A DNA stretch of 64,000 nt from Calditrichota bacterium (GCA_013152715.1 JAADFU010000097.1:1276-65275); one strand, 5' to 3'; positions 13,229 to 52,235 are shown, numbered from the stretch's first letter. Notes: generated from the sequence alone by a model not told the origin. Numbers and translations are program-made.

Positions 13229-13263
13229 AAAATTAGAACCCAGTTATTTTCGAAAATAGTTTT

Positions 13264-16601: not shown

Positions 16602-16612
16602 ATTTATCAAGT

Positions 16613-16641
16613 CCTTTCAAATGTTCGAGACCTTTGAAAGG
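16613..16641 (+). terminator. Hairpin (CCTTTCAAA / TTTGAAAGG) after the acyl-CoA dehydrogenase stop. Weak intrinsic-terminator candidate.
   Basis: 9-bp stem, 11-nt loop, no clear U-tract. Confidence 0.3.
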
Positions 16642-16684
16642 GTAAATTAGCGTGAAAAGAAAATATATCTTTTAAGGAGGAGAA

Positions 16685-30239: not shown

Positions 30240-31268
30240 TCAAAACCCGATCTGTAAAGTTGTCACATGGACATTGCCTAAGTCGCCGTATTGCGCCATG
30301 GCGTAGTCGAAGCGCAAATCCATGTTTCGGAAAGGTATTTTCAGACCGCCGCCCCAGGTAAACTCGCCCAGATCGTAATTTTGTTTGTAACCCATGCGCA
30401 GCGCCAGAATTTTACGCCACTCATATTCCATCGCCCATTTGGCGCGCATCGGGTTGTCGAACGAATCGTTGATTTCCAAAATGAAAGAGACGCGGTTGCT
30501 CGGGTTCGGGAGAATAACGCTCTCGGCGCCGGCGATATCAAAGGCGACACCCATCTGAAAACTAATGGGCAGCGCATAATCCATGACCTGCAACTGAGCT
30601 TCTAAATTACGGTTTCCCGTTCCCGGCTGATCCGGCAACGGCGCGTAATAAAAGGTCTGCAGAGGCCCGCTATTCATCGCCATGCTTGGGCCAAAATTCG
30701 TAATGCTCATTCCCAATCGCAAACCAGTCAAACCCGGTGTGAAAATCAGTCCGATATCTCCGGAGACGCCGTCTGCTTTTTCCTGCCAGATCTGTTCATG
30801 CACCCAACGGGCGGTGACGCCAAAGGTGATTCGATCAGTCAACACGCGGGCATAACTCAGCCCGACCGCCATACTGAAATTCTGAAAAAACAAGCCGGTG
30901 CCTTCGGGGTCAAATTCCGTTGTTCGTTCTATTTTGCCAATATCCACATAATTGAATGATACGCCGAAATAATTGGCAGAGAACGGAAAAATAATGCCTA
31001 AAAATTGATGACGAATGCCTGCGTAAAGATTGGTATTGCTGTAAATTGCCTTCATTTGATTAGAAAAAGCAATCCCAGCCGGATTCCAATGCAGCGCGGT
31101 GGCATCATTGGCAAGAGCCGTAAACGCGCCGGCCAAAGCGACGGCACGGGCGCCAACCTCAAGTTTCAAGAAATTGGCAGCCGTTGTGCCGACTTTGTTA
31201 ACCTCTTGCTGCGCAAACGCGGAGACGGTTAGCAATAATATGACCAATAAAACTGTGAATTTCTTCAT
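30240..31268 (-). CDS. PorV/PorQ-family outer-membrane beta-barrel (T9SS shuttle/anchor-like), copy 1.
   Basis: Signal peptide. N-terminal GTTAANFLKLEVGARAVALAGAFTALANDATALHWNPAGIA signature of the PorV/PorQ-like family. 342 aa. Confidence 0.55.
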   Translation of the reverse strand: MKKFTVLLVILLLTVSAFAQQEVNKVGTTAANFLKLEVGARAVALAGAFTALANDATALHWNPAGIAFSNQMKAIYSNTNLYAGIRHQFLGIIFPFSANYFGVSFNYVDIGKIERTTEFDPEGTGLFFQNFSMAVGLSYARVLTDRITFGVTARWVHEQIWQEKADGVSGDIGLIFTPGLTGLRLGMSITNFGPSMAMNSGPLQTFYYAPLPDQPGTGNRNLEAQLQVMDYALPISFQMGVAFDIAGAESVILPNPSNRVSFILEINDSFDNPMRAKWAMEYEWRKILALRMGYKQNYDLGEFTWGGGLKIPFRNMDLRFDYAMAQYGDLGNVHVTTLQIGF

Positions 31269-31298
31269 CTTTTTTTATCTCCCATTTGATGGCTGTAA

Positions 31299-34200
31299 TT
31301 ATTTGACGACTGCCATTTTTCCGATACGTTTTTTGCCTGAAGGCGTTTTTACAACGTAGATATAAACGCCAAAGGAAACCTCTAAATTTTCTTTGGAGAG
31401 AAGATCCCAGCGTTCTTCGCCATAAGTGGGACTTGTGTGTTCAAGAGTCCGCACCAAATCTCCGGTTAAAGTATAAATGCGTATCGTGCATTCTGGCGGC
31501 AAATGCGTAAAACGTACTTCGTGCAAATTCCATTGCGAACTTCCCGTGTAAAGCTCCGTGCGAGAGGAGATAACGTACGGATTGGGAACAACTTTGATGT
31601 TCGCCAGATCGTCGTCCTGGATCACCTTTGCGCTGGGTTTGTAAGTTTGAAATCGGAATTGGTCATCTTTAAACGGCTTTTTTGTAGTAAAAGTAAAAAT
31701 GTCGCCAATTGACGGCGGATTTCCTACGCCCCATTCGTCCACAATCGTGGTATCCGTGCCGGAAATGACTGTGTCCGGTTTCCACGAAACGGAAAACACC
31801 CAGGTGAAAGTCCGGGCAGAAGACCCTGGCGTCAAATATTCCCACATTCTCACCTGTCCGCCATTGGGATAGCTTTCCTGCGGCGGTGTAAACAATAAAT
31901 CGATTTGAGTGGGCGGGTCCGTACTGATATTCCAGACTTGGAACGGCAGCGGCATCGTTCCCACAGCGTTGGTGTCGGAATTTTCACCCATAAATCTGAT
32001 TTCGTAATTTGCCGGAATCGCTTTTAGCCCCGTGATGATGTCAACCTGATAATCAGACGTATCGGCAGACACGGAAGTCCAGCGGGTTTCAGATTCCAGA
32101 ATATCTACTTGGTCGTAATTGATGATTTTCAGACCAACGCCGTCAAAGAACGGAAACGGCTCCGGAATAACTCCGCTGGTATCGCTGACGATGTTGGTGC
32201 TGCCGGTGACTTTGAAGACGCCGTCATCCTCGTCGAACACATTGTATTCAAGAAAGCCATTTGTGTCGGTAAAAGATAACGTGTAATTATGGCCGAGAAC
32301 TTCATTGTCATCAACGATCTCCATCTGAATGACGCCGTTGCCCACTCCTTTGATTCGTTGAAAAACAGTGTCACTGTTCGCCGGAATGTAGCCAGCCGGA
32401 TGAACTCCCGAAATAACGTCAACCACATTCAAGTCGCGAGGCGATTTGCCTTTGGAAGTTTCGTTGCAATTAAAAAAATAGGGGTCGTCATACCAGTGAT
32501 CGTAAGCGGTAATGGCGTAGCGATAACGGACGCCATTGACGACGTCATTGTCTGTCCACGAATGGACAATTCCCGTATTATTCCCGACGTAAAACCAGTA
32601 TTGATACGGATCCATTCCTGAATAGTCGTCAATTTTGTCGCATTGAAAAACCGGAACGTAAGCAAGAATATCGCCGATTTCACCGGTTTCGGTCACTTCA
32701 TATATTTCCTGGCCCCAGTCCACGTAGTCCAATTTCCTATCGACGTAGGCCCGATAGATTTTATAACCTTCAAAATCGCGTTTTTTGGTGAGGATATCTC
32801 GGGATTTTTCAGCGATATCGTCCCAGTACAGCGTGACTTTCCCGTTTTCCGTATAAACAATGGGCAAACCATCGTCGTCGACGGTTTTTGTCCCCACCGC
32901 ATTCAGTGTCGGAGTACGAGGAGGACCCGTGCCCTGGAATTTGTTATTGTACAAATCCATTGCTTTGTCAAAATTAGAAATCACATCGGCAAAACGAACC
33001 TCGTACGGATTTGTCGGAAAGCCATCGGCGTCAAGCGCGCCAGGGTTATCCTTCCCGCCGACAATACAGAAATGCAGCGGCAGCGTGTCTCCCGGAGAAA
33101 TGGAGAAAGGCCCCGACGACATCGTAAACCACAGGTCCGGGCGATTACCCGGAGCGACGGATTCCTGAATATCGCGCATTTTTTGCAGATCGTCAAATTG
33201 CGGATCGTCACCATGAAAATATTTTTGTTGCATTTGCGGTGTGAGCAGATCTTTATTGCCGCTTGCCATGGCATACATGATATTTTCCACCTCAATGCCG
33301 CGGTTGGCAGCATCGTAATCTTCCTGAGTGAAGAAATGGTATCCGGTCAAACCTATATCTTTAGGAGTTTTTAAAAAGGCAATGGCATAAGCCGAAACAG
33401 GTCCTTCGGAGTTAATATCATCTGCATCCCGATCATAGCCATCTTTGTCAAACATCAGGAAAATATTTCGTTGTGTATCGGCAAGGCAATAGTCATCTTC
33501 TGCCCAGGGATCCATCGTGTATCCCAACGGATCGCGCCCCGGCAGATCCGGGTCTATCAAAAAGCCAAAATAGAGACTATCGATGGGTTGATCGTAAACT
33601 TGACGCGTCGGGTCTTCGACGGCGACTTCGTCTTTTTTGCGATAGATCAAGTTGTAATTGAAGAAGACGATATCTTTGTAGGCAGTTGTTGAATAGCAAT
33701 AGCCTGATACTTCCATATCAAAGCCAATGGGATAACCCAAATTGTTTTCATCTCCCTGGCGAATTCCATTCCATTTGTCGTCCATGATAAAGAAAATGTC
33801 TTTATCAGAAACAAATTTGTTTTCAATGGGTTTGCCAAAAGTTGGCGACTCCGGGTCGGGATCGATTGCCCAATAACCGGGCCAATGACGCTCACCGGGC
33901 GTTTCAATGAATTGCCCATAAGTGGCTGACATTGGATCTTTATCCCAATATCCTTGAGGCCAGGAATTTGGTCTCGTGCTCGTGGCGATCAAGGGTCTAT
34001 CCGACCAGGTGTCGTCGCCCATGAGCGTTGTGCGCGATCCGTCTTTCGCCTCCCAATCAGGATAATTCGTGTCTTGTTCAGGTTCGCAGAAATAGCAGGT
34101 GATGCTTTCCAGCACGTTGTAGTATTGGCTGCGATCAACGACGTTTCCATCTTCTGTGACAATATTTGTTGCCCAGGGCTGCGGTGGAACGGCAAGAAAA

Positions 34201-34484
34201 GGAATAATCCAGCGTACTTCGCCCCAGTAGCCATGTTTACAATATGGAAAGCCGCGTCTCCCGATCATTCCGTAGTTTTCGACACCATTGACCTGCATCT
34301 CGCCGGCATCCATAAATGCTATTCCCCGGTCGAAGATGCTGGCGGGTTTCTGTAATGTCAAATTTTCGACATCGCCCAGTAATTCTTTGTTCTTCTTCTG
34401 CTGAGCCTGCAATGTCATGGCCCAGAAAAGGAATAACAGGACTGGGATGATTAGATATTTTTTCTCGTTCTTGAAACGTATCAT
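31299..34484 (-). CDS. Large (1061-aa) secreted protein of unknown function with a divergent T9SS C-terminal domain. Cargo A.
   Basis: Signal peptide. FN3-like segments (GYKIYRAY...YRYAITAYD). C-terminus VVPNPYVISS...IRIYTLTGDLVRTL...GVYIYVVKTPSGKKRIGKMAVVK. Paralogous to the 39195-42023 ORF. Confidence 0.65.
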   Translation of the reverse strand: MIRFKNEKKYLIIPVLLFLFWAMTLQAQQKKNKELLGDVENLTLQKPASIFDRGIAFMDAGEMQVNGVENYGMIGRRGFPYCKHGYWGEVRWIIPFLAVPPQPWATNIVTEDGNVVDRSQYYNVLESITCYFCEPEQDTNYPDWEAKDGSRTTLMGDDTWSDRPLIATSTRPNSWPQGYWDKDPMSATYGQFIETPGERHWPGYWAIDPDPESPTFGKPIENKFVSDKDIFFIMDDKWNGIRQGDENNLGYPIGFDMEVSGYCYSTTAYKDIVFFNYNLIYRKKDEVAVEDPTRQVYDQPIDSLYFGFLIDPDLPGRDPLGYTMDPWAEDDYCLADTQRNIFLMFDKDGYDRDADDINSEGPVSAYAIAFLKTPKDIGLTGYHFFTQEDYDAANRGIEVENIMYAMASGNKDLLTPQMQQKYFHGDDPQFDDLQKMRDIQESVAPGNRPDLWFTMSSGPFSISPGDTLPLHFCIVGGKDNPGALDADGFPTNPYEVRFADVISNFDKAMDLYNNKFQGTGPPRTPTLNAVGTKTVDDDGLPIVYTENGKVTLYWDDIAEKSRDILTKKRDFEGYKIYRAYVDRKLDYVDWGQEIYEVTETGEIGDILAYVPVFQCDKIDDYSGMDPYQYWFYVGNNTGIVHSWTDNDVVNGVRYRYAITAYDHWYDDPYFFNCNETSKGKSPRDLNVVDVISGVHPAGYIPANSDTVFQRIKGVGNGVIQMEIVDDNEVLGHNYTLSFTDTNGFLEYNVFDEDDGVFKVTGSTNIVSDTSGVIPEPFPFFDGVGLKIINYDQVDILESETRWTSVSADTSDYQVDIITGLKAIPANYEIRFMGENSDTNAVGTMPLPFQVWNISTDPPTQIDLLFTPPQESYPNGGQVRMWEYLTPGSSARTFTWVFSVSWKPDTVISGTDTTIVDEWGVGNPPSIGDIFTFTTKKPFKDDQFRFQTYKPSAKVIQDDDLANIKVVPNPYVISSRTELYTGSSQWNLHEVRFTHLPPECTIRIYTLTGDLVRTLEHTSPTYGEERWDLLSKENLEVSFGVYIYVVKTPSGKKRIGKMAVVK

Positions 34485-34553
34485 TTTTGATCTCCATATT
34501 ATTATCGGTTTAAAAAATTGAACGTGAATTCAGCGAATTAATAAAAGCAAAAT

Positions 34554-37500
34554 TTAGAGCTCCATTCTTAAACCGAAAGTAATAGATCTACGCGGTCCAA
34601 AATTGTTAATGGAAATGCCATCCATTCGCGTGGCGCTATATTCAGAGTATTGACCGCCAGGATCGGTTGCTGAGCCGGTTCTGGTGTAACCGTCCATCAC
34701 GTTTTTCCTGTCGAAAAGGTTACGAATTTGCACGTAAGCGGAATAGGTCAAACTAAACAGTTTGAAATTTTTGTATGCCCGCAAGTCGATTTGGTGAAAG
34801 AAAGGCCAGCGAGCAGAGTTTTCTTTCGCCACGTAGCCGGCTTCACCTAACGTCGGAGTGTATGGTCTCCCGCTTTCCCCCTGATAAAAAACACTTAGGC
34901 CAGCGCTTGACAATAGCCTTTTGCCGAAAAGAATCGGGCCGGCGTTCCTGGGAACACTGAAATTCAAATAAACACGAATATTGTGCGGCTGATCCCAATT
35001 CGGCTTCGTTTCGCGTTTGGGTATCGTGTTTTTGGTGTCATCGTTCCAGTATCCGTCCCACGAAGTCGGCCGCAAGACGCGCGCCTGAGACCAGGTGTAG
35101 TTAATTGTTCCTGAAAAATAGTGGCTGTACCGCTTACGAATTGCCAGATCAATGCCGCGCGCGGAACCAAAGTTGTTGTTGATGAAAACCGAATATGTAT
35201 AAGGATTCTGATGTTGGGGATCAGAATAAGCCGGCACTTGAATAGAGCCAACCTGATTGGTTGTCTCTTTTGACCAGAGAGTCACATTGATTCCCCAAAG
35301 GTTACCAATTTGATGTTGGTAACCAATTTCGTATTGGATCGACTTTTCCGGTTCCAACAGCGGATTGCCGATTATGTTGCCCAATTGCATACTCACCTGG
35401 CGAATAGCGCCTGAGGCGCGATAAAGATCGCGGTAGTTTGGCTGCTGATAAAAATGTCCAAAATTGAAATGCACGACCGAGGTGGCGGTAATCGGATAAG
35501 CGATACCAATTCGCGGGCTGACTTTCCATTTGCGTTCGCCTTTTTTAAACGGTCGATATTCCAGCCCGGGTTGCGTAAAATCTTGCTCAGCTAACGGATC
35601 CAACGGATTTTCCCACATGGCGACGGTATCCGGGAAGGCATAGTCCAAACGGCCTCCGACATTGATCACGACGCTGGCATATTCGATTTTGTCCATGATG
35701 TACAAGGCGCCTTCTTCAGGCCAGTAATTGTAAATGGTAGGATAAGCGGTAGGCCCGGTAGTGCCCTGATCGTCATGGCGAAATTGGTGAATTTTCGTAT
35801 ATTGACCGCCAAATTTAATCTGATGATGCTTGTTGACCTGGCTGGTAAAATCGATTCTGAAATCGTAGGTGTAACTGGAATCACCGGAGAAATAGCTGTT
35901 GTCATAGCGCATCCGGAAATATCCTTCCCACGGGTCGCGTACGCCATAGGTATTGCGAAAAGCGTACTGATCTTTTTGAAGCACATTCTCCCAGTCCGGA
36001 GCAAAATAATTTTTCATGCCTAAAAGATCGCCATAAGGTTTGGTCGGATCGTTGAGAATCCGCACGCGTCTGGATTCAAAAAATCGTTGAAAACGCACTG
36101 TGTAAAAAGTAGAGGGGCTTAGTGTATGATTCCAGATCAAATTGAGACGATTGCTCGTGCGGATTTGCACGTTGCGTGCCGCCATGCCGGAACGATTTCT
36201 TTGCCAGACTTGAAAATTGGTACTGCCACAGACAGGGCAAGCGTTAGGTGTTGGATCGTGAGCCCGCACCAAATTTCCGTTTTCGTCATAGCGATCGCCA
36301 AGAAGCACAGTTTTTGTGCCGCACTCATCGCAAACTAATAGACGATCGATGTTTTCTCTGGTGTCCACAGGACTCACGTCGATATTGTACCATTCCCCCG
36401 GAAGATGGTAGTAATATCCTGCACTAAAATTGTTATATTGGCTGAATGCATTGTACTGGGAAGCACTGAGCGACAATTTCATTGTTGGGTTAATGCGGTA
36501 AGTTAATTTACCTAACCAGTCAAATGAATTGTTCCAGCCCATGCCATGCCAGCCTTTCCAGATGTCCAGGGGATTGATCCAGCGATCCGCGCCATAAACA
36601 TCTTGAACGATTGTGCTGTGGACTTCTTTCAGTGAAATCGAGTCCATCTTTCCGTCTTCGAGGAAATCTTGAAACAGAACATTCGATGTCGGCAGAGTGC
36701 CGTTTTTTACCAATGGGTGATCGTTCCAGATAATGTCGTCAAATTTATAGACGCTTCCCGCTTTGGTGGAAACTTCGCTGGAAAAGAAAAAAGATAGATT
36801 GCGGACAAATGGCACTGGGCCATTAATGCTAAATTGAACATCCTGATAATTTCGAGCTCTGCCCTGTTCCGTACCTAATGCTTTTACTCCGAAAGGAACG
36901 GATGAGCTGTATTCCAACAAACCAGACAGCCGATTCCCACCCTCGCGCGTCGTTAAATTGATAACACCGGACAATGCGTTGCCATATTCCGGGCTAAAAC
37001 CGCCAGCAGACACAGTCATCTGGTTGATGGCGTTGTTGTTGATTCGTGTGGCAAAACCGCCAAACAACGGGTTCTGTACTTTCATGCCATCAACGAACAG
37101 ACCTACTTCGTTGTTTCTGCCACCGCGCATACGAATATCTTCAATTCCGCGAATGTTGTACCCTCTTTTCGCATACGGCGTGTTAGTGAGAATGGTAATG
37201 TTCGATTGCAGCGCAAGCACGCGAGTCATGTCTTCTACGGGCATGTTTTTGATTTCCTCGTAAGTTACTGTGGAAACCTTTGAAGTAACATCCGCTTCGA
37301 TGAGCGGACGTTCTGCCGTAACAACCACCTCTTCGCCAACATCAAGGACCGTCTCCTCCATAGTGAAATCCAGCTTGGTTGTCTGTCCCACTACAACCTG
37401 AACCCCAGTTTTGGTGAGCGTTTTGTAGCCCATCATGGCGCAAGAGACCGTATAGGTGCCAGGCTGAATATTAATCATGTAATAGTAGCCGTCAATGTCT

Positions 37501-37676: not shown

Positions 37677-38146
37677 TTGGCTCCCCTTTCTGATTCAATT
37701 AATTATTAAAAAAAAATGCAATTCCAATTGACGAGAAATTGAGAATTGCATTCATGATTTTGGTCAATACATTTGTTATATTTTTCCTCCCTCTAGTATG
37801 CCCTATGTTATTGAATATAAAAAGAAAAAAATTAAAGTCAAGTAAAAAATGATAAAATTAAATTTTTTTTTCTTTGCAAGCAGTAAATGGAAATATTTTT
37901 CCGAAGTTGGCTAACTAACAGTAATTATTTGAGTTACTTGTTGCTCTGTAGCCACTCATTGGCTCCTTCTCATGATCTTTAAGTCGAAAACAAGCTCACT
38001 GATTTCATCCCGGCCGTTAGCCGTCAGAGATTTCACAATCTATTTTGAGCCATACCTCAAAGATGATGCAATAACGACAAAGTAAACGAAGAACTAGCAA
38101 AATCCGGGACGGAAATCAATCCCGCCCCGGCATGACAATTGAAAAA

Positions 38147-39184
38147 CTAAAAAGTTAACCCGAAAGTAAATTGCTGAATATATTTGAAAGTTCCGAATTC
38201 TGCATAAGCGTAGTCAAGGTGCATGTTGATTGTCGGGCTAATAGGAGCGACAAAACCGGCGCCGAAAGTCAGTCCTTCTTCATCGGTTTGCGTTTTATAA
38301 CCGGCGCGAAAAAACATGCGCTCGTTGAAGCTGTATTCTGCGCCGAAATTAAATTGTTCGACATTGTCATTGGGGTGAGCAACATCAAAAATTGCAGTGA
38401 CTCTATTTTTATTACTGACAGCGAACACACCGTTTGCGCCGACAAAATCAGTGGACACAGAAGCGCGAAAAATCGTTGGCAAAGGCCACGATTCAGTACT
38501 CAGTTTGGCTTCGGTGTCCGGATTCAGCGTGCTTTCCGGCATCTGATCGTAGCCGACAATTAAGTCCCTGCCTTCCATTTTCAATTCAGTACCAAAATTA
38601 CTCATGACCATTGCCAACTTGATTCCCTGAATGCCGGTATCCAGCATCATGCCAATATCGATTCCAACACCAGTGGCGTTCTCGTTCCAGATACTCTGAT
38701 AAATGAGTTTCCCGGTGATACCGACCTGAATGAAATCGGTCATTGCTCGTGCATAAGTCACGCCAAACGCGAAATCCTGAGCGCTGAAAAACAGACCTGT
38801 TCCCCGTGGCTGCTCGATTGTCGTTTGTTCAATTTCACCCATGGATTGAAAAACCGCAGAAAATCCGATACTACCTCCCCTTCCCAGGGGAATCACTGCA
38901 CCGGTAAAGCCATGATTAATATCCATGATCCAATTAGTATAGGTGAATGTCACTTCCGGCTCATCCAGCAAAGCGATTCCCGCCGGATTCCAGTAGAGAG
39001 CGGAAGCGTCGCTGGCAATCGAAGAAAAGGCGCCGCCCATGGCAGTGGCGCGCGCTCCGGCGTCGATTTTTAAGAATTGCGCTGCCGTGGTACCGGTCTT
39101 TTTAAAATTATCTCCCGCCATTGCCCCATACGGCAGGAAAACCATTAGCAGCAGTATGATCAAAATATCCCGAATGATTTTCAT
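38147..39184 (-). CDS. PorV/PorQ-family outer-membrane beta-barrel, copy 2.
   Basis: GTTAAQFLKIDAGARATAMGGAFSSIASDASALYWNPAGIA. 345 aa. 11 bp downstream of cargo B. Confidence 0.55.
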   Translation of the reverse strand: MKIIRDILIILLLMVFLPYGAMAGDNFKKTGTTAAQFLKIDAGARATAMGGAFSSIASDASALYWNPAGIALLDEPEVTFTYTNWIMDINHGFTGAVIPLGRGGSIGFSAVFQSMGEIEQTTIEQPRGTGLFFSAQDFAFGVTYARAMTDFIQVGITGKLIYQSIWNENATGVGIDIGMMLDTGIQGIKLAMVMSNFGTELKMEGRDLIVGYDQMPESTLNPDTEAKLSTESWPLPTIFRASVSTDFVGANGVFAVSNKNRVTAIFDVAHPNDNVEQFNFGAEYSFNERMFFRAGYKTQTDEEGLTFGAGFVAPISPTINMHLDYAYAEFGTFKYIQQFTFGLTF

Positions 39185-39194
39185 TATTCCCTCC

Positions 39195-42023
39195 TCATTT
39201 AATCAATGCAAATTTACCCATTTTTTGACGACCATCAGGGGTTTCAACGATGTAAATATAAACGCCAAAAGCTAAATCCTGATTGGAATCGGAGGTGACG
39301 TTCCAGTCCTCGGCGCCGGCGCTATTGGTATGTCTGATAGTTCTGATTTTTTCCCCACGAGTCGTGTAAATCGTAATCGTACATTGCGGAGGTAAAAACA
39401 TAAAACGCATCAGACGAACATTCACTCCCTGTTCCCAGGCTGCGTTCACCACGTAAGGATTAGGAACAACTCGTACTGCGTCAAGTTCGCTGTCGGTAAC
39501 AGCACGAAAAGATTTTGCTGTAAAAGTAATTTTGTACACATCTTGCGGTGTGTGCGCCCGCTGCGTAATGATGGTAACTTTCTGTCCTTCGATGGGGGGA
39601 AGTCCCGCAGAATCCGTCGGCGCATTTTGAATAGTTACTTCCAGCGGCACCTGCTCGAAAAGATTGATCGAATAGGTGCTTCCAATAGTTAATTCCTGAT
39701 AAGGCGCGTTAATAATGTAAATTTTCTCTCCCTCATCAAACTGTAAATTACCATTGTCCTGAATCACAAAATGCACACGAGTATTAAAGGTGGTATTCCA
39801 GACCTGAATCGGTACTTTTTCTGCAATCTGAATGTTTGCGCCTATTCTTGTCCCGATTGCTGAACTGTCCGCGGTGAAACGGATTTCGTAATTCGAAGTT
39901 TTTGCGTCAAAATCTCCCCAGCGTTCCAGCGCTTCAACGTACCAGGAGCCGGTAGTGTCGCTTTTGCCTTTGCCGAACACATCTCTGCCAAATTCGTCGA
40001 CGATAGCGCTGATGCCGCCGTAAGCGTCGTCGCCATTCACGCGGATTCGAAAGCCGTCTCTGACTGGCATTTCGTCGGTGTTGATGGGATAGCTTTCAAG
40101 CAAAGTTGTATTGTCGGTGGCATCGACCAACTGAAAATTAACGCCCGGGCTGTCGGGAAAAACGACGTGGTAGGTGTGATCGGTGATTTTATTCGGGTCG
40201 AGAATTTCCAGGTCAATCGTTCCCTTGCCCATGCCGGCAATGTGCGACACAGAAGCTTCTGGCGGAACAGCGCCCGAAGCCGGCGGTTCCGGAATGACCT
40301 GCACGAAGTTGTCCTCGGTCGCTTTTGTTCCTTTTGAAGATTCAAAAGAAGGGATATTTTTGTTCGGCTGACCTCTGTCGTAAGCGGTGATTGTGTACGA
40401 ATAAGTCACTCCATTGCTGACGTCAGTGTCAGTCCAGCTATGGCGAATTCCGGAGTTGTTTCCCAGATAACTGTTAGCATTCAACGGATCTAATCCCGAG
40501 ATCGTATTTTTTAAATCAAATTGTGCCACCGGGACATACCCCACGAGATTGCCCGCGCCATCCAGTATCTTTTCTCCCCAGGTATTTCCGTTATCGACGC
40601 TGCGATAGATTTTATACCCTTCAAAATCAAGCTCGCCGGTAAAAGGGTCGGCTTTCAGTTCCGGCGCATTGTCCCAGTAAAGCGTGGCCTCACCATCGCC
40701 GGCAACCGCATATAGCTTCGGAGACGCCGGTCCCGAGGGCCCCTGATAATGTTTCAAGTACATTCCTTTGGCAATATCGATATTGGCAAGGAAGTCTTCT
40801 TCATTCTCACCGCCGCTGACAACGAGCACGGCTTTCACGGATTCTCCTGGCTCAAGAGAAAACGGTCCCGTAGTTTCCATGCAAACCCAGTCGTATCCGT
40901 AGGGCGGACTTTGTGTCAGCGTGTAATCGTCCAGATGAACATTGTTGCCGTGAAAATAGTCGCCCTTGGGTACAGGACAATTCGGATCAGAAGGATTACT
41001 GGAGATAATAGGCCATAATTCAGCGTCTGTTGTGGGGCCTGTGTCCAGAAAATAGTGAGAATCGGTAATGCCCATATCTTTTGGCGTTTTAAAATATGCC
41101 ACGCCAAAAGCTCCGGTCTCGAACTCATCTGGTAATGTGCCATTGGGATCATATTCCATCATCACATCCCACTCGCCGGGATTCAGTCCTGTTTTGAAAG
41201 TTTTGTACGCCTCATCCAGATAATCTCCGTAATCAAGATCGTAATAATAGCCCCACCAGCAGCTATCTAATCTCGTGTCGCTGGTGTTCGTAATGGTGAA
41301 ATCATAAAAAATAAAATCCGCGGCGTAGGATCGGCCATATTCATAGGTTTCGATGTCGAGGCGTATTCCCATGGGTTCGCCTTGTAAATCATCTGCATCA
41401 TCCAACGCGGCGTAAATTACGCGATCCGCCGGAAATTCGCCCGGGACTTCCTGACCGTAAGTCGCAGAAGTCGAATCGATGTCGATGCGAAACTTTCCGG
41501 GCCAATGATGTTCGCCGGGCGTGTCGATGAATTGGCCGTTTTCGTCAAAATAGCCTTCGGGCCAGGTCGCCGGAATGTCGCTGACCGCCAGGTGGGGATA
41601 GCCTTGGTGCATGAGTTCTTCGGACTGATTTTTTGCGTGGTAATGTCCCCAGCTTCCATCGACGGGTCCCCAATCTTCCTGGCGATAAGCTGTATAGCCA
41701 TCAACCACATTACCTTTGCAGGCAAAAATCATGGAAAAGTCATCGACACAATTGTCGCCTGCGGAGATGGCCCCTTTGCTTTTGGGCCAGAGGAAATCAT
41801 AAAATTCCGATTGGAAGTAGCCATCGGTAATTTCTCCGAAATTCATAAAACAATTGAGCAGTTCGCCCTTGCCCTGAAGCGCGTAGGCAATATCCGGCCC
41901 CTGTGCGGCAGGTTTTGCGATGCCTGTCGTTTGATCCGTTTCCCTTTTATTCACCTGCTGGGCGAAAGCCAGCGTGAAAATGAGCAAAATCAAAAGTGAT
42001 GAATAAAAAATGTTTTTCCTCAT
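39195..42023 (-). CDS. Large (942-aa) secreted protein with a divergent T9SS CTD. Cargo B, paralog of cargo A.
   Basis: Signal peptide. Shared blocks with cargo A (GEHHWPGKF.., GYKIYRS...YSYTITAYD). C-terminus VVPNPYVVNA...ITIYTTRGEKIRTI...GVYIYIVETPDGRQKMGKFALIK. Confidence 0.65.
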   Translation of the reverse strand: MRKNIFYSSLLILLIFTLAFAQQVNKRETDQTTGIAKPAAQGPDIAYALQGKGELLNCFMNFGEITDGYFQSEFYDFLWPKSKGAISAGDNCVDDFSMIFACKGNVVDGYTAYRQEDWGPVDGSWGHYHAKNQSEELMHQGYPHLAVSDIPATWPEGYFDENGQFIDTPGEHHWPGKFRIDIDSTSATYGQEVPGEFPADRVIYAALDDADDLQGEPMGIRLDIETYEYGRSYAADFIFYDFTITNTSDTRLDSCWWGYYYDLDYGDYLDEAYKTFKTGLNPGEWDVMMEYDPNGTLPDEFETGAFGVAYFKTPKDMGITDSHYFLDTGPTTDAELWPIISSNPSDPNCPVPKGDYFHGNNVHLDDYTLTQSPPYGYDWVCMETTGPFSLEPGESVKAVLVVSGGENEEDFLANIDIAKGMYLKHYQGPSGPASPKLYAVAGDGEATLYWDNAPELKADPFTGELDFEGYKIYRSVDNGNTWGEKILDGAGNLVGYVPVAQFDLKNTISGLDPLNANSYLGNNSGIRHSWTDTDVSNGVTYSYTITAYDRGQPNKNIPSFESSKGTKATEDNFVQVIPEPPASGAVPPEASVSHIAGMGKGTIDLEILDPNKITDHTYHVVFPDSPGVNFQLVDATDNTTLLESYPINTDEMPVRDGFRIRVNGDDAYGGISAIVDEFGRDVFGKGKSDTTGSWYVEALERWGDFDAKTSNYEIRFTADSSAIGTRIGANIQIAEKVPIQVWNTTFNTRVHFVIQDNGNLQFDEGEKIYIINAPYQELTIGSTYSINLFEQVPLEVTIQNAPTDSAGLPPIEGQKVTIITQRAHTPQDVYKITFTAKSFRAVTDSELDAVRVVPNPYVVNAAWEQGVNVRLMRFMFLPPQCTITIYTTRGEKIRTIRHTNSAGAEDWNVTSDSNQDLAFGVYIYIVETPDGRQKMGKFALIK

Positions 42024-42110
42024 GTTTAAACTCCTTCAAGTAAGCTTGTGTGATCAAATCGGTTTGCTGCTTTTTTTCATCAAAAAGAATTTTTCCGCAA
42101 TTCAATCTGT

Positions 42111-44906
42111 TTAAAAAAGAACGCGCGCGCCCACAGAAATTTGCCGCAAGGGACCCACATTCGACGGATTGTGAATTCTGTCCTGCGTGTGGGAAGAAGT
42201 CGGGCCGGCGTCCCAAGCTTTACCCGTTCGCGACCAAACGTAAAAAGTGTTGAGCCGATTGAAAAGATTTTTTACCACCAGAAACAAATTCATGCGAACA
42301 TTTTGGTAGAGATTGACTTCTTTTTGCACGCGCAAATCCACGGTCGAAGTCCACGGCCTTCTGCCGGTGTTTTTTTCCACAAAAATATTTTCCGCTTGTT
42401 CTTCGACAAAAGGCGTGTACGGCAAGCCGCTCGCTGCTTGCGCCAGAATATTGACATCAATATTTCCCAAAGGATTGTACCCGATAAGCGTCGGGCCGAA
42501 ATCTTTGGGAGATTTGAAAATCAAATTCATGGAAATATCATGGCGTCGGTCGAAATCGAGGAAATATTCCCGATTCGGACGCAAAGTAACGTCAACGCCG
42601 CGGTAGTAGTTGTAGCCGTCTCTTGAAGATGATTCATTTCCTTTAGCTATGGATAAAGTGTAGTTAAATATTCCTGAAAAATAACTGCCGTATTTTTTCT
42701 CCAGGCTGAAGTCAATTCCTTTGATACTGCCATAATCGGAATTGTCAAACACAGTAAAATTGTACGGAAAAACAAGTTTGAAAGTGCTGGCCGCCAGATT
42801 CGTGACATCTTTGAAATAAGCATTGACGTCAAAAACCCAATCTTCGGAAAGCTGATATTTTAAACCAAATTCGTACTGCACGGTTTTCTGGCTTTTGATT
42901 TTGGGATTGCCAATAAGCGGGACGCCGCCCGCCGTCACATCGTGATGTTTGTACATTTCATAAAAACTGGGCACTTCGTAAAAGTGGCCATAAGAGGAAT
43001 GAAACACCATACCCGAAGTCACTGGATAAGCGATTCCTATGCGCGGGCTTAAATGAATTTGTGGATTTGCCGGCTCTTCCAGAGCAGGAATCCATTCTCC
43101 TGTCGTTTCATCCAGGTGACCGGGATCATAAATGTCTTCCCACATGGTGTATTTGGGATCAAAATAATCGAGCCGCAGACCGGCATTAATGATGAAACGC
43201 GCATATTCCATTTTATCCTGCACATAGCCGGCAAATTCAACCGGATGATGTTCAAAAATTTCAATGTAATGAGCTGAACCGGGCCAGGGATAGCGCCAAC
43301 GATCTCGCCACACAGTGTGTCTTTTGGCCTGCAATCCGGATTTAATCTGATGATGCCGGGAAACCTGGCTGGTCATATCGAGCTGGAAAGTGAGCGTCGT
43401 CGTTCGGTTGTCCTCGTAGCGACCGCGGTCGCCGCGAACGTAGAAACCGTCGGAATTGGTGCTTCCCTTTTCCCAATCGCTGTAAAGATTGATCACAGAA
43501 TCCATCTTTACCTGGTCATTGCGAATTTCTTCGGGCCAATCGCTGATTTTGAACTTGCGATTGGGGTTCCAGCGATAGAATCGGTGATAGTAATGATAAA
43601 TTTTTGCCGTGTAAAATGTTTTGGACGACAAAGTATGCGTGAACTCAAGTAAATTTCTGTTGGTGATATCCTGCCGATCTTCCAAAGCAAAGGGACGATA
43701 TTTCCAAACATGAGAGTAAGGTTTGTAATACCGCCGCGTAGCGTGGATGTTGTATTTGAGATTGTAATTTCCTTTGGAATAAACTAATTTTCCGTTCAAT
43801 TCGCGCCGTGCGTCGTAACCCCAGGGACGATAATCTTTGAAATTAGAATGGCGCGCGGAGACAAAGAAACTCAAATTGGGGATGAAGGGAACAGGCCCGG
43901 TTAAATTCGTTGTAATGTAACCTAATAATGGATTCCCAAATAGCGTGGGCAAATTGCCAACGCCGGGGATTGCCGTAAAATCAGGCACTTGATAAAAAGA
44001 AGTTCCTAACGGATCGCCAGGTAGGGGGGTAGAAGATGTATCATTGCCGGAAATGTACTGCCTCCACGAATCCCGATATTGATCTTCTTGAGCAGAGGGG
44101 ATATCTACCAGATCCGAGTTCAACATCCAGTCCACTTGTCGAAACGGAGAAGCGTTTAGCCAATGAGATTCGTACTCGACGCGTCCGGAAAAATGTTTGC
44201 GCTGCGGTTCTTTAGTGACAATGTTGATAATTCCGGACATGGCTTGCCCGTATTCGGCGTTGTAAGCGCCGGTAATCAGTTGCATTTCCTGAATCGTATA
44301 TTTGTCCAACTCGATTTGGGCGGCGCCGGCTTTGTAGAACGGATCCTGTACCAGCACGCCGTCGATCATGTAGGCGATTTCCCCCTGTCTGCCGCCGCGC
44401 AAATGCAATTCTCCGCCCTCTCCGGTAGTAATGCCTGCCTGTGCGGCAATCGCGTCGCTGAATTCATTGACCGGCATGTTCTGAAAAGTTTGAAAATCAA
44501 GATAGGAAGTCTTGGATGTAACGTCTCTTTCCACGGCAGGTCTCTCCGCCTGAACCGTTACAACCTGGCCGGAAATAACTGTCGGTTTGAGTTTAAATTC
44601 AATTTCAGTAGTGCGATCAACGATGATTTTCACATTTTCTTTCACTATTGCCGTGTAACCCATCATCGACGCTTTCACTGAATAAGTGCCGGGCGGAATA
44701 TTCAGAATAAAATAGACGCCGTTGATATCCGCGGCTGCTCCGAGAGAAGTGCCAGTAATAAAAACGTTAGCCCCGGGCAGCGGATTGCCGCTCTCAGCGT
44801 CCACGACTTTGCCAGTGAGTTTTCCTGTTGTGCCGCCAAAAACAAAGATTGGGGTGAGAACAAAACACAGAAAAATCACCATCAAGGAAGCTGACTTTGG
44901 TTTCAT
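42111..44906 (-). CDS. TonB-dependent-receptor-like outer-membrane protein (CarboxypepD_reg + plug + barrel), copy B. No zinc ribbon.
   Basis: I place the start at MKPKSASLMV..., which has GAGGAGG 6 nt upstream. The barrel ends ...VGARVLF with a C-terminal Phe. Confidence 0.7.
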   Translation of the reverse strand: MKPKSASLMVIFLCFVLTPIFVFGGTTGKLTGKVVDAESGNPLPGANVFITGTSLGAAADINGVYFILNIPPGTYSVKASMMGYTAIVKENVKIIVDRTTEIEFKLKPTVISGQVVTVQAERPAVERDVTSKTSYLDFQTFQNMPVNEFSDAIAAQAGITTGEGGELHLRGGRQGEIAYMIDGVLVQDPFYKAGAAQIELDKYTIQEMQLITGAYNAEYGQAMSGIINIVTKEPQRKHFSGRVEYESHWLNASPFRQVDWMLNSDLVDIPSAQEDQYRDSWRQYISGNDTSSTPLPGDPLGTSFYQVPDFTAIPGVGNLPTLFGNPLLGYITTNLTGPVPFIPNLSFFVSARHSNFKDYRPWGYDARRELNGKLVYSKGNYNLKYNIHATRRYYKPYSHVWKYRPFALEDRQDITNRNLLEFTHTLSSKTFYTAKIYHYYHRFYRWNPNRKFKISDWPEEIRNDQVKMDSVINLYSDWEKGSTNSDGFYVRGDRGRYEDNRTTTLTFQLDMTSQVSRHHQIKSGLQAKRHTVWRDRWRYPWPGSAHYIEIFEHHPVEFAGYVQDKMEYARFIINAGLRLDYFDPKYTMWEDIYDPGHLDETTGEWIPALEEPANPQIHLSPRIGIAYPVTSGMVFHSSYGHFYEVPSFYEMYKHHDVTAGGVPLIGNPKIKSQKTVQYEFGLKYQLSEDWVFDVNAYFKDVTNLAASTFKLVFPYNFTVFDNSDYGSIKGIDFSLEKKYGSYFSGIFNYTLSIAKGNESSSRDGYNYYRGVDVTLRPNREYFLDFDRRHDISMNLIFKSPKDFGPTLIGYNPLGNIDVNILAQAASGLPYTPFVEEQAENIFVEKNTGRRPWTSTVDLRVQKEVNLYQNVRMNLFLVVKNLFNRLNTFYVWSRTGKAWDAGPTSSHTQDRIHNPSNVGPLRQISVGARVLF

Positions 44907-45141
44907 TATGATCCTCCTCATTTTGATATTTGTATTTCGAGTTTCAGATTTCGGGTTACGAGTTTCGCGTTTTGGGTTTCGAATTAGGAATTTCTTTTTG
45001 CTTTGTTTTTTTGTCGGCCAAATGAAATTCGATGCCGTAAAGCGTTTTGATTCTCCACCCGAAGCAATGAGCCGTCTTATTTAAACGCAGTCGGCGCTTC
45101 ACAACTCTCAACCGTAAACTCTGAATTATGAACTCAAAAAA

Positions 45142-47135: not shown

Positions 47136-47250
47136 ATTATTACTACTTAGCAAATTATGTTATTTATGCAATTAACCATCCCCCCTAAGTCCCCCCTCTA
47201 AAGAAAGGCAAGGGCGGATATTCAGATTCAATCTAACTAAGTAGTATTAT
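47136..47250. repeat. ~115-bp segment bounded by a 10-bp perfect inverted repeat (TACTACTTAG / CTAAGTAGTA) and containing the C-rich motif CATCCCCCCTAAGTCCCCCCT. MITE-like or REP-like element.
   Basis: IR-L 47136-47150 and IR-R 47237-47250. Internal motif at 47178-47200 is related to the palindrome at 13264-13336. Confidence 0.35.
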
Positions 47251-52155: not shown

Positions 52156-52235
52156 GAATTGACCTCCCTGGAAATTGTACATTTAAATTTTTTGTCCCTC
52201 CAAAAGCTTAAAACCTCTGAAAGGATTCTGCTGCG

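What the first reader, a model, noticed from the sequence alone, without database searches (positions are those of the whole stretch)
30240..44906. Two tandem three-gene modules: TonB-dependent-receptor-like barrel, giant T9SS cargo and PorV/PorQ-like barrel
On the minus strand, the order [CarboxypepD_reg+plug+barrel OMP (~935-1040 aa)] - [~950-1060-aa secreted protein with a divergent T9SS CTD] - [342-345-aa PorV/PorQ-family barrel] occurs twice in a row (44906-38147 and 37676-30240). Intergenic gaps are 11-87 bp, so these look like operons. All three components are paralogous between the two modules. SusC-like TonB-dependent transporters normally pair with SusD-like lipoproteins. Here the partner is a T9SS-secreted giant protein plus a dedicated PorQ/PorV-like barrel, reminiscent of the PorZ-PorQ anchor pair. 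This points to a modular cell-surface capture/uptake device that I do not recognise as a described system. A lipoprotein, a GWxTD protein and an SGNH-TPR protein follow on the same strand (30141-25723).
Basis: partly seen in the sequence, partly recalled or inferred. Interest (0 to 1): 0.8.

Follow-up and report, generated by a model that had tools for sequence, protein, structure and literature searches.

The report
Three-gene outer-membrane nutrient capture module
Two neighbouring copies of a three-gene outer-membrane set (a TonB-powered import channel, a large secreted all-beta surface protein and a small PorV-like barrel that probably anchors it) belong to a very widespread, unnamed unit of Bacteroidota-related phyla, which probably does the job the SusC/SusD pair does in gut Bacteroides.

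Summary
Two paralogous minus-strand operons, 44921-38147 and 37676-30240, each encode a TonB-dependent receptor, a 942/1061-aa secreted protein and a 345/342-aa PorV/PorQ-family barrel.

The window is from a Calditrichota MAG. The middle protein has no Pfam or NCBIfam family and every homologue is labelled "hypothetical". The family is nevertheless huge: 1,605 clusters at 50% identity with E<=1e-30, and at least 592 genomic hits across FCB phyla.

The gene order is kept in 51 of 54 loci with enough flanking sequence, with median gaps of 23 and 16 bp. The three proteins diversify together (r=0.83-0.88).

The middle protein is modelled with mean pLDDT 86. It has a galactose-mutarotase-like supersandwich head, Fn3 and beta-sandwich domains, and a divergent T9SS C-terminal domain closest to those of PorU and PorZ. 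Those are the two T9SS proteins whose C-terminal domains stay bound to PorV and PorQ.

Flanking genes look like those of a polysaccharide utilization locus: T9SS-CTD proteins, CBM20/48/53, GH13/94/3/10/43/66, sugar-binding proteins and RpiR regulators.

Best reading (inferred, not demonstrated): a SusD-free functional analogue of SusCD, in which a T9SS-delivered protein is docked on a dedicated PorV-like barrel and feeds a TonB-dependent transporter. I found no published description.

The parts
42111..44921 (-). Module A TonB-dependent receptor (936 aa): signal peptide, CarboxypepD_reg N-terminal extension, TonB-box-like QVVTVQA (about 44547-44567), plug, 22-strand-type barrel ending in F
   Evidence: Pfam PF13715 67 bits, PF07715 30.7, PF00593 84.6, PF25183 54.1. 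SusC/RagA TIGR04056 only 56 bits against a cut-off of 368. N-terminus and TonB-box region read.
39195..42023 (-). Module A large secreted all-beta protein (942 aa): SPI-type signal peptide with no lipobox, supersandwich head (residues about 45-425, nt 40749-41891), Fn3-like domain with DFEGYKIYR (about 437-575, nt 40299-40715), further beta-sandwiches, divergent T9SS CTD (about 851-942, nt 39198-39473) with VVPNPY, a family-specific W-E-x3-N-V-R-x2-R-F loop and a conserved Cys881
38147..39184 (-). Module A PorV/PorQ-family outer-membrane barrel (345 aa), proposed cognate anchor for the CTD of the large protein
   Evidence: NF033709 207.5 bits (cut-off 90). PorQ equivalog 106.8 (<220) and PorV equivalog 78.4 (<250). 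Best PDB sequence match is F. johnsoniae PorV 6h3i_F, E 1.7e-5.
38104..38130 (-). Terminator-like hairpin (11 pairs, 8 G-C, T-run) 17 nt after the barrel A stop codon; ends transcription unit A
   Evidence: sequence read. This is a consensus match only.
37814..37841 (-). Sigma-70-like promoter match TTGACT-16-TATATT (10/12) upstream of TBDR B
   Evidence: The total number of such sites in the region is not above shuffled expectation, so this is weak evidence.
34554..37676 (-). Module B TonB-dependent receptor (1040 aa): CarboxypepD_reg, TonB-box-like EEVVVTA (about 37314-37334), plug, barrel
   Evidence: Pfam PF13620 71 bits, PF07715 43.2, PF00593 89. SusC/RagA 82.5 bits against 368..
31299..34484 (-). 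Module B large secreted all-beta protein (1061 aa), a full-length paralogue of the module A protein; CTD at about nt 31302-31613
   Evidence: 27% identity end to end with the A protein, E 3e-103. No family hit. Nearest relatives are in L023 and L025 (815 and 776 bits).
30240..31268 (-). Module B PorV/PorQ-family barrel (342 aa)
   Evidence: NF033709 180.8 bits (cut-off 90). 36% identical to barrel A.
47247..48992 (-). BNR/Asp-box propeller protein with a canonical T9SS type A CTD (581 aa); probable accessory surface protein of the locus
   Evidence: Pfam BNR_2 36.7 bits and Por_Secre_tail 41.9; TIGR04183 48 bits. An orthologous about 520-550-aa BNR+CTD gene directly precedes the TBDR in A-type and B-type loci L001, L002, L004, L008-L011 and L025. 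The window copy is only distantly related (30% identity, E 1e-31, much of it in the CTD).
45142..47058 (-). Beta-propeller plus transglutaminase-core protein with a T9SS type A CTD (638 aa), lying between the BNR gene and module A; a same-strand neighbour not conserved at other loci
   Evidence: Pfam Transglut_core 78.7 bits and Por_Secre_tail 32.5. No non-CTD relatives beside modules elsewhere.

Best explanation
Each triplet is the core of a substrate-specific outer-membrane uptake unit, working like SusCD but built from different parts.

Proposed steps:
(2) That domain is not removed. It stays bound to the co-encoded PorV/PorQ-family barrel, as PorZ stays on PorQ and PorU on PorV, so the protein is tethered at the surface without a lipid anchor.
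(3) Its N-terminal galactose-mutarotase-like supersandwich head, held out on an Fn3/beta-sandwich stalk, captures (and possibly processes) a polymer or oligomer.
(4) The co-encoded TonB-dependent receptor, which has a TonB box and a plug, imports the product into the periplasm.

Different orthogroups of the triplet serve different substrates, alongside locus-specific T9SS-secreted enzymes and binding proteins. The window carries two orthogroups, A-type and B-type, in tandem as separate transcription units. Their substrate is undetermined.

Shown: gene content, paralogy, conservation of order, co-diversification, family assignments, fold of the large protein, CTD relationships and neighbourhood content. 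Inferred: T9SS export, CTD retention on the barrel, surface location, ligand binding, physical coupling to the receptor and direction of transport.
For: - Architecture and paralogy.
- Conserved colinear order: 51 of 54 loci. TBDR upstream in 61/63 and barrel downstream in 65/70, with median gaps of 23 and 16 bp, across many FCB phyla.
- Size of the family: 1,605 clusters at 50% identity with E<=1e-30.
- Modules diversify as units: pairwise-identity matrices of the three proteins over 57 modules correlate at r=0.88, 0.83 and 0.84, Mantel 0/999.
- T9SS is in use in this organism: at least five canonical type A CTD proteins are in the window.
- The CTD of the large protein is homologous to T9SS CTDs (hhalign 97%, E 8e-11). 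17/17 CTDs match the PorU C-terminus (best 9e-8), 16/17 match PorZ (1e-8) and 17/17 match type A (2e-6).
- PorU and PorZ CTDs are retained and bind PorV and PorQ (PMC10947112; PMC10202324). Cognate-barrel anchoring is also documented for type B cargo with PorP/SprF (PMC9143113).
- All 71 small barrels are PorV/PorQ-family.
- The large protein has no lipobox and no catalytic-domain fold; its head resembles carbohydrate-associated supersandwich domains.
- The receptors have a TonB-box-like motif and a plug.
- Neighbours of the triplet in other genomes: T9SS-CTD proteins in 23/51 upstream and 15/44 downstream genes, plus CBM20 (6), CBM53 (3), CBM48 (2), CBM9, CBM4_9, GH94, GH3, GH10, GH43, GH66, sugar-binding SBP_bac_1 (4), RpiR (6) and some peptidases.
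- The Melioribacter locus L045 reads GH13 - PPIase - TBDR - large protein - barrel - CBM20/48+CTD - GH13+CTD - GH9.
- Orthogroup-specific partners: the starch-type orthogroup has a CBM20-type neighbour in 5/5 loci and BNR in 0/5. The BNR propeller is found only with A-type and B-type modules.
Against: - There is no experimental datum for any member. Location, CTD retention, ligand binding and complex formation are all inferred.
- The CTD similarities to PorU and PorZ are weak (PDB E 0.04 and 0.08), and the type A model also matches all 17 CTDs. A normal cleaved CTD is therefore not excluded.
- No complex prediction could be run.
- The head fold is shared with non-binding domains such as the YidC periplasmic domain, so it does not prove sugar binding.
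- The window's own neighbours are not CAZymes. They are transglutaminase-like proteins, a BNR propeller, AgcS, NhaC and an M1 peptidase, so the PUL analogy rests on other genomes.
- The co-diversification signal is what co-inherited neighbours would give even without physical contact.
- The loci were retrieved through the large protein, so how often such receptors or barrels occur without it was not measured.
Confidence: 0.55

Rival explanations
1. Same surface-tethered arrangement, but the large protein is an enzyme (a depolymerase or isomerase using the supersandwich head) rather than a binding or lid protein. The receptor then takes up its products.
Confidence: 0.17
2. The receptor-like barrel is not an importer. 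It is an export or assembly device for the large protein, as proposed for the Myxococcus TonB-dependent protein Oar in secretion of the protease PopC (recalled from my own knowledge of Gomez-Santos et al. 2019; not checked here). The small barrel would be a co-factor.
For: TBDR A and the Melioribacter TBDR hit the Oar-type model PF25183 OMP_b-brl_4 (54.1 and 34.5 bits, partial coverage) and carry the same CarboxypepD_reg N-terminus. Linkage to one large secreted protein is tight.
Against: The large protein carries a T9SS-type CTD, and the organism has canonical T9SS cargo, so an export route already exists. A 100-kDa multi-domain beta protein is an unlikely passenger for a plugged 22-strand barrel. 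PUL-like neighbours, including periplasmic or ABC sugar-binding proteins, fit import. TBDR B gives no PF25183 hit.
Confidence: 0.07
3. The pair of large protein and small barrel is an adhesin or surface-layer unit, analogous to SprB-SprF. It would serve attachment or gliding, and the receptor is merely co-regulated.
For: Fn3 and beta-sandwich arrays resemble adhesins (Foldseek hits to fibronectin and adhesin repeats). Cognate-barrel anchoring is known for the gliding adhesin SprB with SprF (PMC9143113). Starch-type members have Asp-rich Ca-binding-type repeats.
Against: The receptor is kept immediately upstream in 61/63 loci and co-diversifies with the other two, which incidental co-regulation does not explain. 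There are several paralogous modules per genome, each with different CAZyme or CBM partners. The protein is only about 1,000 aa, not the multi-thousand-residue repeat type of SprB.
Confidence: 0.1
4. The small barrel is a FadL-like channel that itself transports a small or hydrophobic substrate, and has no role in holding the large protein.
For: PorV belongs to the FadL superfamily. Barrel A has a sub-threshold Toluene_X hit (29.3 against 29.7 bits, short stretch) and a UPF0164 hit. 2/71 barrels weakly hit the FadL-type FilD model.
Against: 71/71 barrels match the PorV/PorQ model full length, up to E 1e-75. The adjacent gene always carries a PorU/PorZ-like CTD. The median gap from large protein to barrel is 16 bp.
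Confidence: 0.05

Closest known systems
SusC/SusD (RagA/RagB) core of Bacteroidota polysaccharide utilization loci
   Same: A TonB-dependent transporter with a CarboxypepD_reg-type N-terminal extension is encoded immediately before a surface-exposed partner. There are many paralogous copies per genome. The pair sits among secreted GH and CBM proteins, sugar transporters and regulators.
   Different: The receptor does not reach the SusC/RagA model (56 and 82.5 bits against 368). The partner is an all-beta protein of about 1,000 aa with an SPI signal and a T9SS CTD, not an alpha-helical TPR-like SusD lipoprotein. A third obligatory gene, the PorV-like barrel, has no counterpart in SusCD.
PorQ-PorZ and PorV-PorU pairs of the T9SS attachment complex (Porphyromonas gingivalis)
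   Same: A PorV/PorQ-family barrel is paired with a T9SS-exported protein whose CTD resembles those of PorU and PorZ. In the known pairs the CTD is retained and tethers the protein to the barrel (PMC10947112, PMC10202324).
   Different: The barrels fail the PorQ and PorV equivalog cut-offs (106.8 against 220; 78.4 against 250). The partner has neither PorZ's double propeller nor PorU's peptidase domain. The pairs are multi-copy, substrate-locus-specific and fused operonically to a TonB-dependent receptor. They are not part of the secretion machinery itself.
Type B CTD cargo with cognate PorP/SprF-like barrels (SprB-SprF, PG1035-PorP)
   Same: The principle is the same: a dedicated outer-membrane barrel is encoded next to its cargo and anchors it at the surface (PMC9143113).
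   Different: The barrel family is different: PorV/PorQ, with no PorP/SprF hit in 71/71. The CTD class is different: type B model 12.7 bits against a cut-off of 35, matched by only 3/17. The barrel lies downstream of the cargo and a TonB-dependent receptor is always present.
Oar-type TonB-dependent proteins (Myxococcus xanthus Oar; Pfam PF25183)
   Same: CarboxypepD_reg plus plug plus a large barrel of 900-1,100 aa. There is a partial PF25183 match for TBDR A.
   Different: TBDR B gives no PF25183 hit. Oar is not known to be linked to a T9SS cargo or a PorV-like barrel. The Oar export role is recalled from memory and was not tested here.
BamG-BamH of the Bacteroidota BAM complex
   Same: A FadL/PorV-like barrel holds an extracellular protein through its loops (PMC12578637). 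21/71 module barrels give weak BamG-model hits (best 2.5e-8).
   Different: The module barrels score far better on the PorV/PorQ model. There is no BamA context, and the partner carries a T9SS CTD.

Membership tests
TonB-dependent transporter | N-terminal plug domain (PF07715) inside a 22-strand barrel (PF00593) | tested here: met
   Plug 30.7 and 43.2 bits (cut-off 23.9); barrel 84.6 and 89 bits (cut-off 27) for TBDR A and B.
TonB-dependent transporter | TonB box upstream of the plug | tested here: inconclusive
   Motifs QVVTVQA (A, residues 119-125) and EEVVVTA (B, residues 115-121) lie between the CarboxypepD_reg domain and the plug. They were recognised by eye against the usual (D/E)-T/x-V-V-V-T-A pattern, with no statistical test.
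SusC/RagA family (TIGR04056) | Whole-protein score at or above 368.25 bits on the SusC/RagA model | tested here: not met
   56 bits (A) and 82.5 bits (B); only model positions 2-242 and 2-208 of 981 are aligned.
SusC/SusD polysaccharide utilization locus | A SusD-like lipoprotein gene adjacent to the receptor | tested here: not met
   No SusD-family Pfam hit in any window protein scanned, nor among the families listed for genes flanking 51 and 44 triplets (only the top 25 families are shown). The adjacent protein is all-beta with an SPI signal.
PorV/PorQ family (NF033709) | Score at or above 90 bits, full-length match | tested here: met
   207.5 and 180.8 bits over model positions 1-326 of 326. 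71/71 module barrels match, best E 1.3e-75.
PorQ proper (NF033711 equivalog) | Score at or above 220 bits | tested here: not met
   106.8 bits (A) and 81.2 bits (B).
PorV proper (NF033710 equivalog) | Score at or above 250 bits | tested here: not met
   78.4 bits (A) and 72 bits (B). PDB PorV 6h3i_F matches at only E 1.7e-5 over residues 11-161.
PorP/SprF family | Match to the PorP/SprF model | tested here: not met
   No PorP/SprF family among hits at E<=0.01 for the window barrels, or at E<=0.001 for 71 barrels.
FadL/OmpP1/TodX transporters (PF03349) | Score at or above 29.7 bits | tested here: not met
   Barrel A scores 29.3 bits on a 49-residue stretch only; barrel B has no hit.
T9SS type A sorting domain (TIGR04183 / PF18962) | C-terminal domain scoring at or above 23 bits (TIGR04183) | tested here: inconclusive
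   The window A CTD scores 17.7 bits, below the cut-off. All 17 family CTDs match at E<=1 (best 2.3e-6), and profile-profile comparison with canonical CTDs gives 97% probability, E 8e-11. The domain is homologous but divergent.
T9SS type B sorting domain (TIGR04131 / PF13585 CHU_C) | Score at or above 35 bits (TIGR04131) or 27 bits (CHU_C) | tested here: not met
   TIGR04131 12.7 bits, matched by 3/17 members. CHU_C 21.6 bits for A and none for B.
T9SS substrate (functional) | Secretion depends on the T9SS; fate of the CTD (cleaved or retained) | not testable with these tools
   Needs genetics or proteomics in a cultured carrier.
Oar-type outer-membrane barrel (PF25183) | Score at or above 30 bits with full-length coverage | tested here: inconclusive
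   TBDR A scores 54.1 bits, but the best stretch covers only model positions 367-471 of 838. TBDR B has no hit at E<=0.01.

The most novel reading that the evidence does not exclude
These triplets are a previously unrecognised class of outer-membrane nutrient-acquisition machine. A type IX-secreted binding protein is held non-covalently, through a retained PorU/PorZ-like C-terminal domain, on its own PorV-family barrel, which in turn partners a TonB-dependent transporter. That would be an independent, lipoprotein-free solution to the problem SusCD solves. It would be the dominant polymer-uptake system of Ignavibacteria, Calditrichota, Marinimicrobia, KSB1 and related uncultured phyla, and a second physiological role for PorV-family barrels outside the secretion apparatus.
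Probability: 0.45. Interest if true: 0.85.

Novelty: new variant of a known kind. Interest (0 to 1): 0.76.

Why it matters
Glycan and peptide uptake in the FCB superphylum is understood almost entirely through SusCD/RagAB of Bacteroidia. PUL prediction, and the carbon-cycling inferences drawn from metagenomes, depend on finding susC/susD pairs.

The phyla that carry this triplet are abundant in sediments, hot springs, the dark ocean and bioreactors. Their polymer-uptake machinery is largely unannotated. A three-gene signature present in thousands of protein clusters would give a direct marker for substrate-specific uptake loci in these lineages.

It would also:
- assign a function to a very large family of about 1,000-aa "hypothetical" proteins;
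- extend the rule that a cognate PorV-like barrel keeps its cargo's CTD, from two machinery proteins (PorU, PorZ) to a large class of cargo;
- link type IX secretion mechanistically to TonB-dependent import.

The idea is directly testable. Cultured carriers exist (Melioribacter, Rosettibacter, Stygiobacter, Caldithrix), and one orthogroup sits in an obvious starch locus.

Tried and rejected
- **Heads as unrelated folds.** Many tblastn and HMM matches cover only residues about 385-942, so I expected the N-terminal heads to be unrelated folds. All-against-all BLAST instead puts 69 of 70 heads (366-729 aa) in one single-linkage cluster. They are homologous but divergent and length-variable. I dropped the idea of interchangeable head folds.
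- **Starch-locus model.** I modelled a starch-locus member (P0308) to look for a starch-binding head. The model was poor (pLDDT 68.5, pTM 0.44), because the alignment was shallow and long Asp-rich inserts are present. I did not use it for a fold search.
- **AFDB search.** Foldseek against afdb50 was not available.
- **Melioribacter roseus link.** I tried to check whether the "SusC, SusD, SusE (Mros0761-0759)" of the M. roseus genome paper (PMC3534657) are this triplet. The neighbouring genes fit locus L045, but no M. roseus P3M-2 sequence turned up in the clusters examined. This remains a lead, not a result.
- **Literature.** Nine full-text searches found no description of the triplet. The library lacks most subscription journals, so absence is not proven.
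- **Trailing genes.** The lipoprotein, GWxTD and GDSL-TPR genes have no relatives beside modules elsewhere; the GDSL-TPR hits are TPR-only and on the opposite strand. They are rejected as module parts.
- **Regulatory RNA.** Rfam at gathering threshold gave no hit and there are no tRNAs in the window. There is no riboswitch in the 470-bp inter-module gap.
- **Promoter scan.** The number of promoter-like sites does not exceed shuffled expectation (31 against 26.8 +/- 6.4). Only the position of one 10/12 site is suggestive.

Full report
**1. What is in the window**

The minus strand between 44921 and 30240 carries six long ORFs in the order described. Module A is 42111-44921 (936 aa), 39195-42023 (942 aa) and 38147-39184 (345 aa). 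Module B is 34554-37676 (1040 aa), 31299-34484 (1061 aa) and 30240-31268 (342 aa).

- The first gene of each module has CarboxypepD_reg, Plug and TonB-dependent-receptor barrel domains above Pfam cut-offs. A TonB-box-like motif (QVVTVQA in A, EEVVVTA in B) lies between the N-terminal extension and the plug.
- The third gene of each module is a full-length match to NCBIfam NF033709 "PorV/PorQ family protein" (207.5 and 180.8 bits, cut-off 90). Both stay below the equivalog cut-offs for PorQ and PorV.
- The middle genes have no family. They give only a sub-threshold CHU_C hit and a weak match to the C-terminus of PorU.
- All six proteins start with SPI-type signal peptides. The middle proteins have no lipobox.

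The two modules are paralogous gene for gene: 33-39%, 27% over the full length, and 36% identity, with E values of 4e-75, 3e-103 and 2e-69. Gaps inside the modules are 87, 10, 69 and 30 bp. The 470-bp spacer between modules has a strong hairpin with a T-run directly after barrel A and a 10/12 promoter-like site before receptor B. The modules therefore look like two transcription units, although this rests on consensus matches only.

**2. Source and context**

The module A middle protein is 100% identical to a hypothetical protein of a Calditrichaeota MAG (GXO74_08215). The window holds at least five proteins with canonical T9SS type A C-terminal domains, so the organism uses type IX secretion.

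- Upstream on the same strand are a BNR-propeller+CTD protein (47247-48992) and a transglutaminase-core+CTD protein (45142-47058).
- Further up are NhaC, a second transglutaminase-core protein and an RpiR regulator.
- Downstream are a lipoprotein, a GWxTD protein, a GDSL-TPR protein and an AgcS amino-acid carrier.

**3. The triplet is a conserved, very widespread unit**

Homologues of the middle protein are all "hypothetical" with no precomputed Pfam domain. A profile search of 1.84 billion cluster representatives finds 1,605 with E<=1e-30 and 5,158 with E<=1e-10.

They come from Ignavibacteria/Melioribacteraceae, Calditrichota (including Caldithrix), Marinimicrobia, KSB1, WOR-3, Cloacimonetes, Stahlbacteria, Zixibacteria, Kryptonia, Rhodothermales and some Bacteroidota. 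A few MAGs carry labels outside the FCB group, and these may be mis-binned.

In three distant contigs with precomputed gene calls, the order is BNR+CTD, receptor, large protein, PorV-like barrel.

Across 83 loci, BLASTP with the window proteins gave the following:

| Measure | Result |
|---|---|
| Receptor immediately upstream | 61 of 63 loci with room |
| Barrel immediately downstream | 65 of 70 loci with room |
| Both present | 51 of 54 loci with room on both sides |
| Median gaps | 23 and 16 bp |
| Median lengths | 912, 1049 and 342 aa |

Several MAGs contribute two or more loci, and some loci have tandem modules (L029, L070, L076), like the window.

Pairwise identity matrices of the three proteins over 57 modules correlate at r=0.88, 0.83 and 0.84 (Mantel 0/999). 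The modules therefore diversify as units without shuffling of parts. Co-inherited neighbours would give this result with or without physical contact, so it argues against incidental adjacency but does not prove a complex.

All 71 module barrels hit the PorV/PorQ family model. None hits PorP/SprF and only 2 weakly hit a FadL-type model.

**4. What the large protein is**

- There is no (alpha/alpha)6 or other catalytic module.

Foldseek agrees, returning Fn3 arrays, PorZ and GH94/GH116 N-domains.

The family's C-terminal domain is homologous to canonical T9SS CTDs from the same loci (hhalign 97%, E 8e-11), but the window copy falls below the type A cut-off (17.7 against 23 bits). Scanned one at a time against NCBIfam, the 17 CTDs gave:

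| Model | CTDs matching | Best E |
|---|---|---|
| PorU C-terminus | 17/17 | 9e-8 |
| PorZ C-terminus | 16/17 | 1e-8 |
| Type A | 17/17 | 2e-6 |
| Type B | 3/17 | 0.047 |

Among all PDB chains, the CTD profile finds only PorU and PorZ, and only weakly (E 0.04 and 0.08).

PorU and PorZ are exactly the two T9SS proteins whose CTDs are not cleaved and remain bound to PorV and PorQ (PMC10947112; PMC10202324). The latter review explicitly suggests that cognate PorV-like barrels protect CTDs from cleavage.

The family CTD also has two distinctive features. One is a conserved insert (W-E-x3-N-V-R-x2-R-F) that is the only low-confidence stretch of the model's C-terminal part (858-868). The other is a single conserved, apparently unpaired Cys (88% of modules), which aligns with a Cys of PorZ.

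The N-terminal heads vary in length (366-729 aa) but form one BLAST cluster. The C-terminal 496-642 aa are better conserved. Starch-locus members carry long Asp-rich DxDxDG-type inserts in the head.

**5. Neighbourhoods elsewhere point to nutrient acquisition**

I ran a Pfam census of the genes on each side of the triplet.

Immediately upstream of the receptor (n=51, 44 on the same strand):
- 23 T9SS-CTD proteins
- 8 SurA-like PPIases
- 8 BNR propellers
- 6 RpiR regulators
- CBM9, CBM4_9, GH43 and M28

Immediately downstream of the barrel (n=44, 38 on the same strand):
- 15 T9SS-CTD proteins
- 6 CBM20, 3 CBM53, 2 CBM48 and 2 pullulanase X25
- 4 sugar-type solute-binding proteins
- GH94 (2), GH66, GH3 and GH10
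- S51 (3), InhA-like MAM domains (3), M16 and DctM (3)

In cultured Melioribacter sp. OK-6-Me, the locus reads GH13 amylase, PPIase, receptor, large protein (1224 aa), PorV-like barrel, CBM20/48/53+CTD, GH13+CTD, GH9. Orthologues at 60-88% identity are "hypothetical" in Rosettibacter, Stygiobacter and many MAGs.

Partners are orthogroup-specific. The starch-type orthogroup has a CBM20-type neighbour in 5/5 loci and a PPIase in 5/5. The L002-type BNR propeller occurs only with A-type modules (L001, L002, L004, L008-L011) and a B-type module (L025). That BNR gene is a true orthologue between KSB1 and Marinimicrobia (41% identity, E 2e-122). The window's BNR+CTD protein is a more distant relative.

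[quoted passage not shown] The layout matches L045, so those labels were probably given to this triplet by analogy. I could not verify that.

**6. Most likely mechanism**

Probability about 0.55.

1. The large protein is exported by Sec and then by the T9SS.
2. Its PorU/PorZ-like CTD stays on the co-encoded PorV-family barrel, which tethers it at the surface.
3. The supersandwich head, held on a beta-sandwich stalk, captures or processes the locus-specific substrate.
4. The adjacent TonB-dependent receptor imports the product.

This works like SusCD plus surface glycan-binding proteins, but none of the parts is a member of those families. The receptor fails the SusC/RagA model, the partner is not SusD-like, and a third barrel is required.

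The substrate of the two window modules is unknown. The local neighbours (BNR propeller, transglutaminase-like proteins, AgcS, NhaC, M1 peptidase, branched-chain amino-acid catabolism genes) hint only weakly at a non-starch substrate, possibly a glycoprotein or peptide.

Rival readings:
- The large protein is an enzyme rather than a binder (0.17).
- The unit is an adhesin or surface layer (0.10).
- The receptor acts in Oar-like export (0.07).
- The small barrel acts as a FadL-like channel (0.05).

Chance adjacency is excluded by the synteny.

**7. Novelty**

- Pfam (2025) and NCBIfam (June 2026) have no model for the large protein.
- Every source calls it hypothetical.
- Nine full-text literature searches found no description of the triplet. 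The library does not cover most subscription journals.

The principles involved are known: a TonB-dependent transporter working with a surface partner, and a cognate PorV-like or PorP-like barrel retaining a T9SS protein. Their obligatory three-way combination, its spread and its apparent role as a SusD-free PUL core appear undescribed. I rate it a new variant of a known kind, of high interest, with the mechanism still to be demonstrated.

Noticed in passing
window 39381-39383 (Cys881 of the module A large protein); the same alignment column in 88% of 57 modules: There is a single conserved Cys in the CTD (motif LPP-x-C-T-I). No second conserved Cys exists in the large protein, the receptor or the small barrel. 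PorZ has a Cys at the aligned position. This could be an intermolecular disulfide or a covalent attachment site.
   Followed up: partly
L045 6147-9821 and alignment A5 (starch-locus orthogroup): The supersandwich head is interrupted by about 250 residues of Asp-rich repeats (IDNDGDGE, DGIDNDGNG, DDVGLDGVPDTGD), resembling thrombospondin-type-3 or dockerin-like Ca-binding loops. This region is modelled with low confidence.
   Followed up: partly
L045 1755-3464 and 7 other loci (gene immediately upstream of the receptor): A SurA-like double-PPIase gene directly precedes the receptor in 8 of 51 loci, including all 5 starch-type loci. It may be a dedicated periplasmic chaperone for the module's barrels.
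   Followed up: no
Literature: PMC3534657 (Melioribacter roseus genome), genes Mros0759-0761: The 'SusC, SusD, SusE' of the M. roseus starch operon have the same flanking genes as the triplet in Melioribacter locus L045. They are probably this triplet mislabelled by analogy. I could not verify this because the M. roseus sequence was not in hand.
   Followed up: partly
window 5265-19942 (+): This is a branched-chain or leucine-type acyl-CoA catabolism cluster. It contains thiolase-like genes, biotin carboxylase, carboxyltransferase, two acyl-CoA dehydrogenases and a 1085-aa fused B12-binding/MeaB/methylmalonyl-CoA-mutase (IcmF-like) protein.
   Followed up: no
window 45142-47058 (-) and 50539-52182 (-): These are two paralogous-looking proteins, each a beta-propeller plus a transglutaminase-core (cysteine-protease-like) domain. 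The first has a T9SS type A CTD and the second has no detected CTD. They flank an NhaC antiporter.
   Followed up: no
window 2863-4044 (+) and 20567-23638 (-): These are two purple-acid-phosphatase-like metallophosphoesterases. The larger one (1023 aa) carries a T9SS type A CTD, suggesting surface phosphate scavenging.
   Followed up: no
window 28104-29462 (-) and 29482-30141 (-): A GWxTD-domain protein and a 219-aa lipoprotein (lipobox IIGC) follow module B on the same strand. They are not found next to modules in other genomes.
   Followed up: yes
whole window: There are no tRNA genes and no Rfam family at gathering threshold in 64 kb.
   Followed up: yes
L058, L072, L079, L080, L015 (record titles): A few carriers are labelled Verrucomicrobia, Acidobacteriota, Caldisericaceae, Lentisphaeria or Deferribacteres. 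This reflects either mis-binned or mislabelled MAGs, or spread of the module beyond the FCB group.
   Followed up: no
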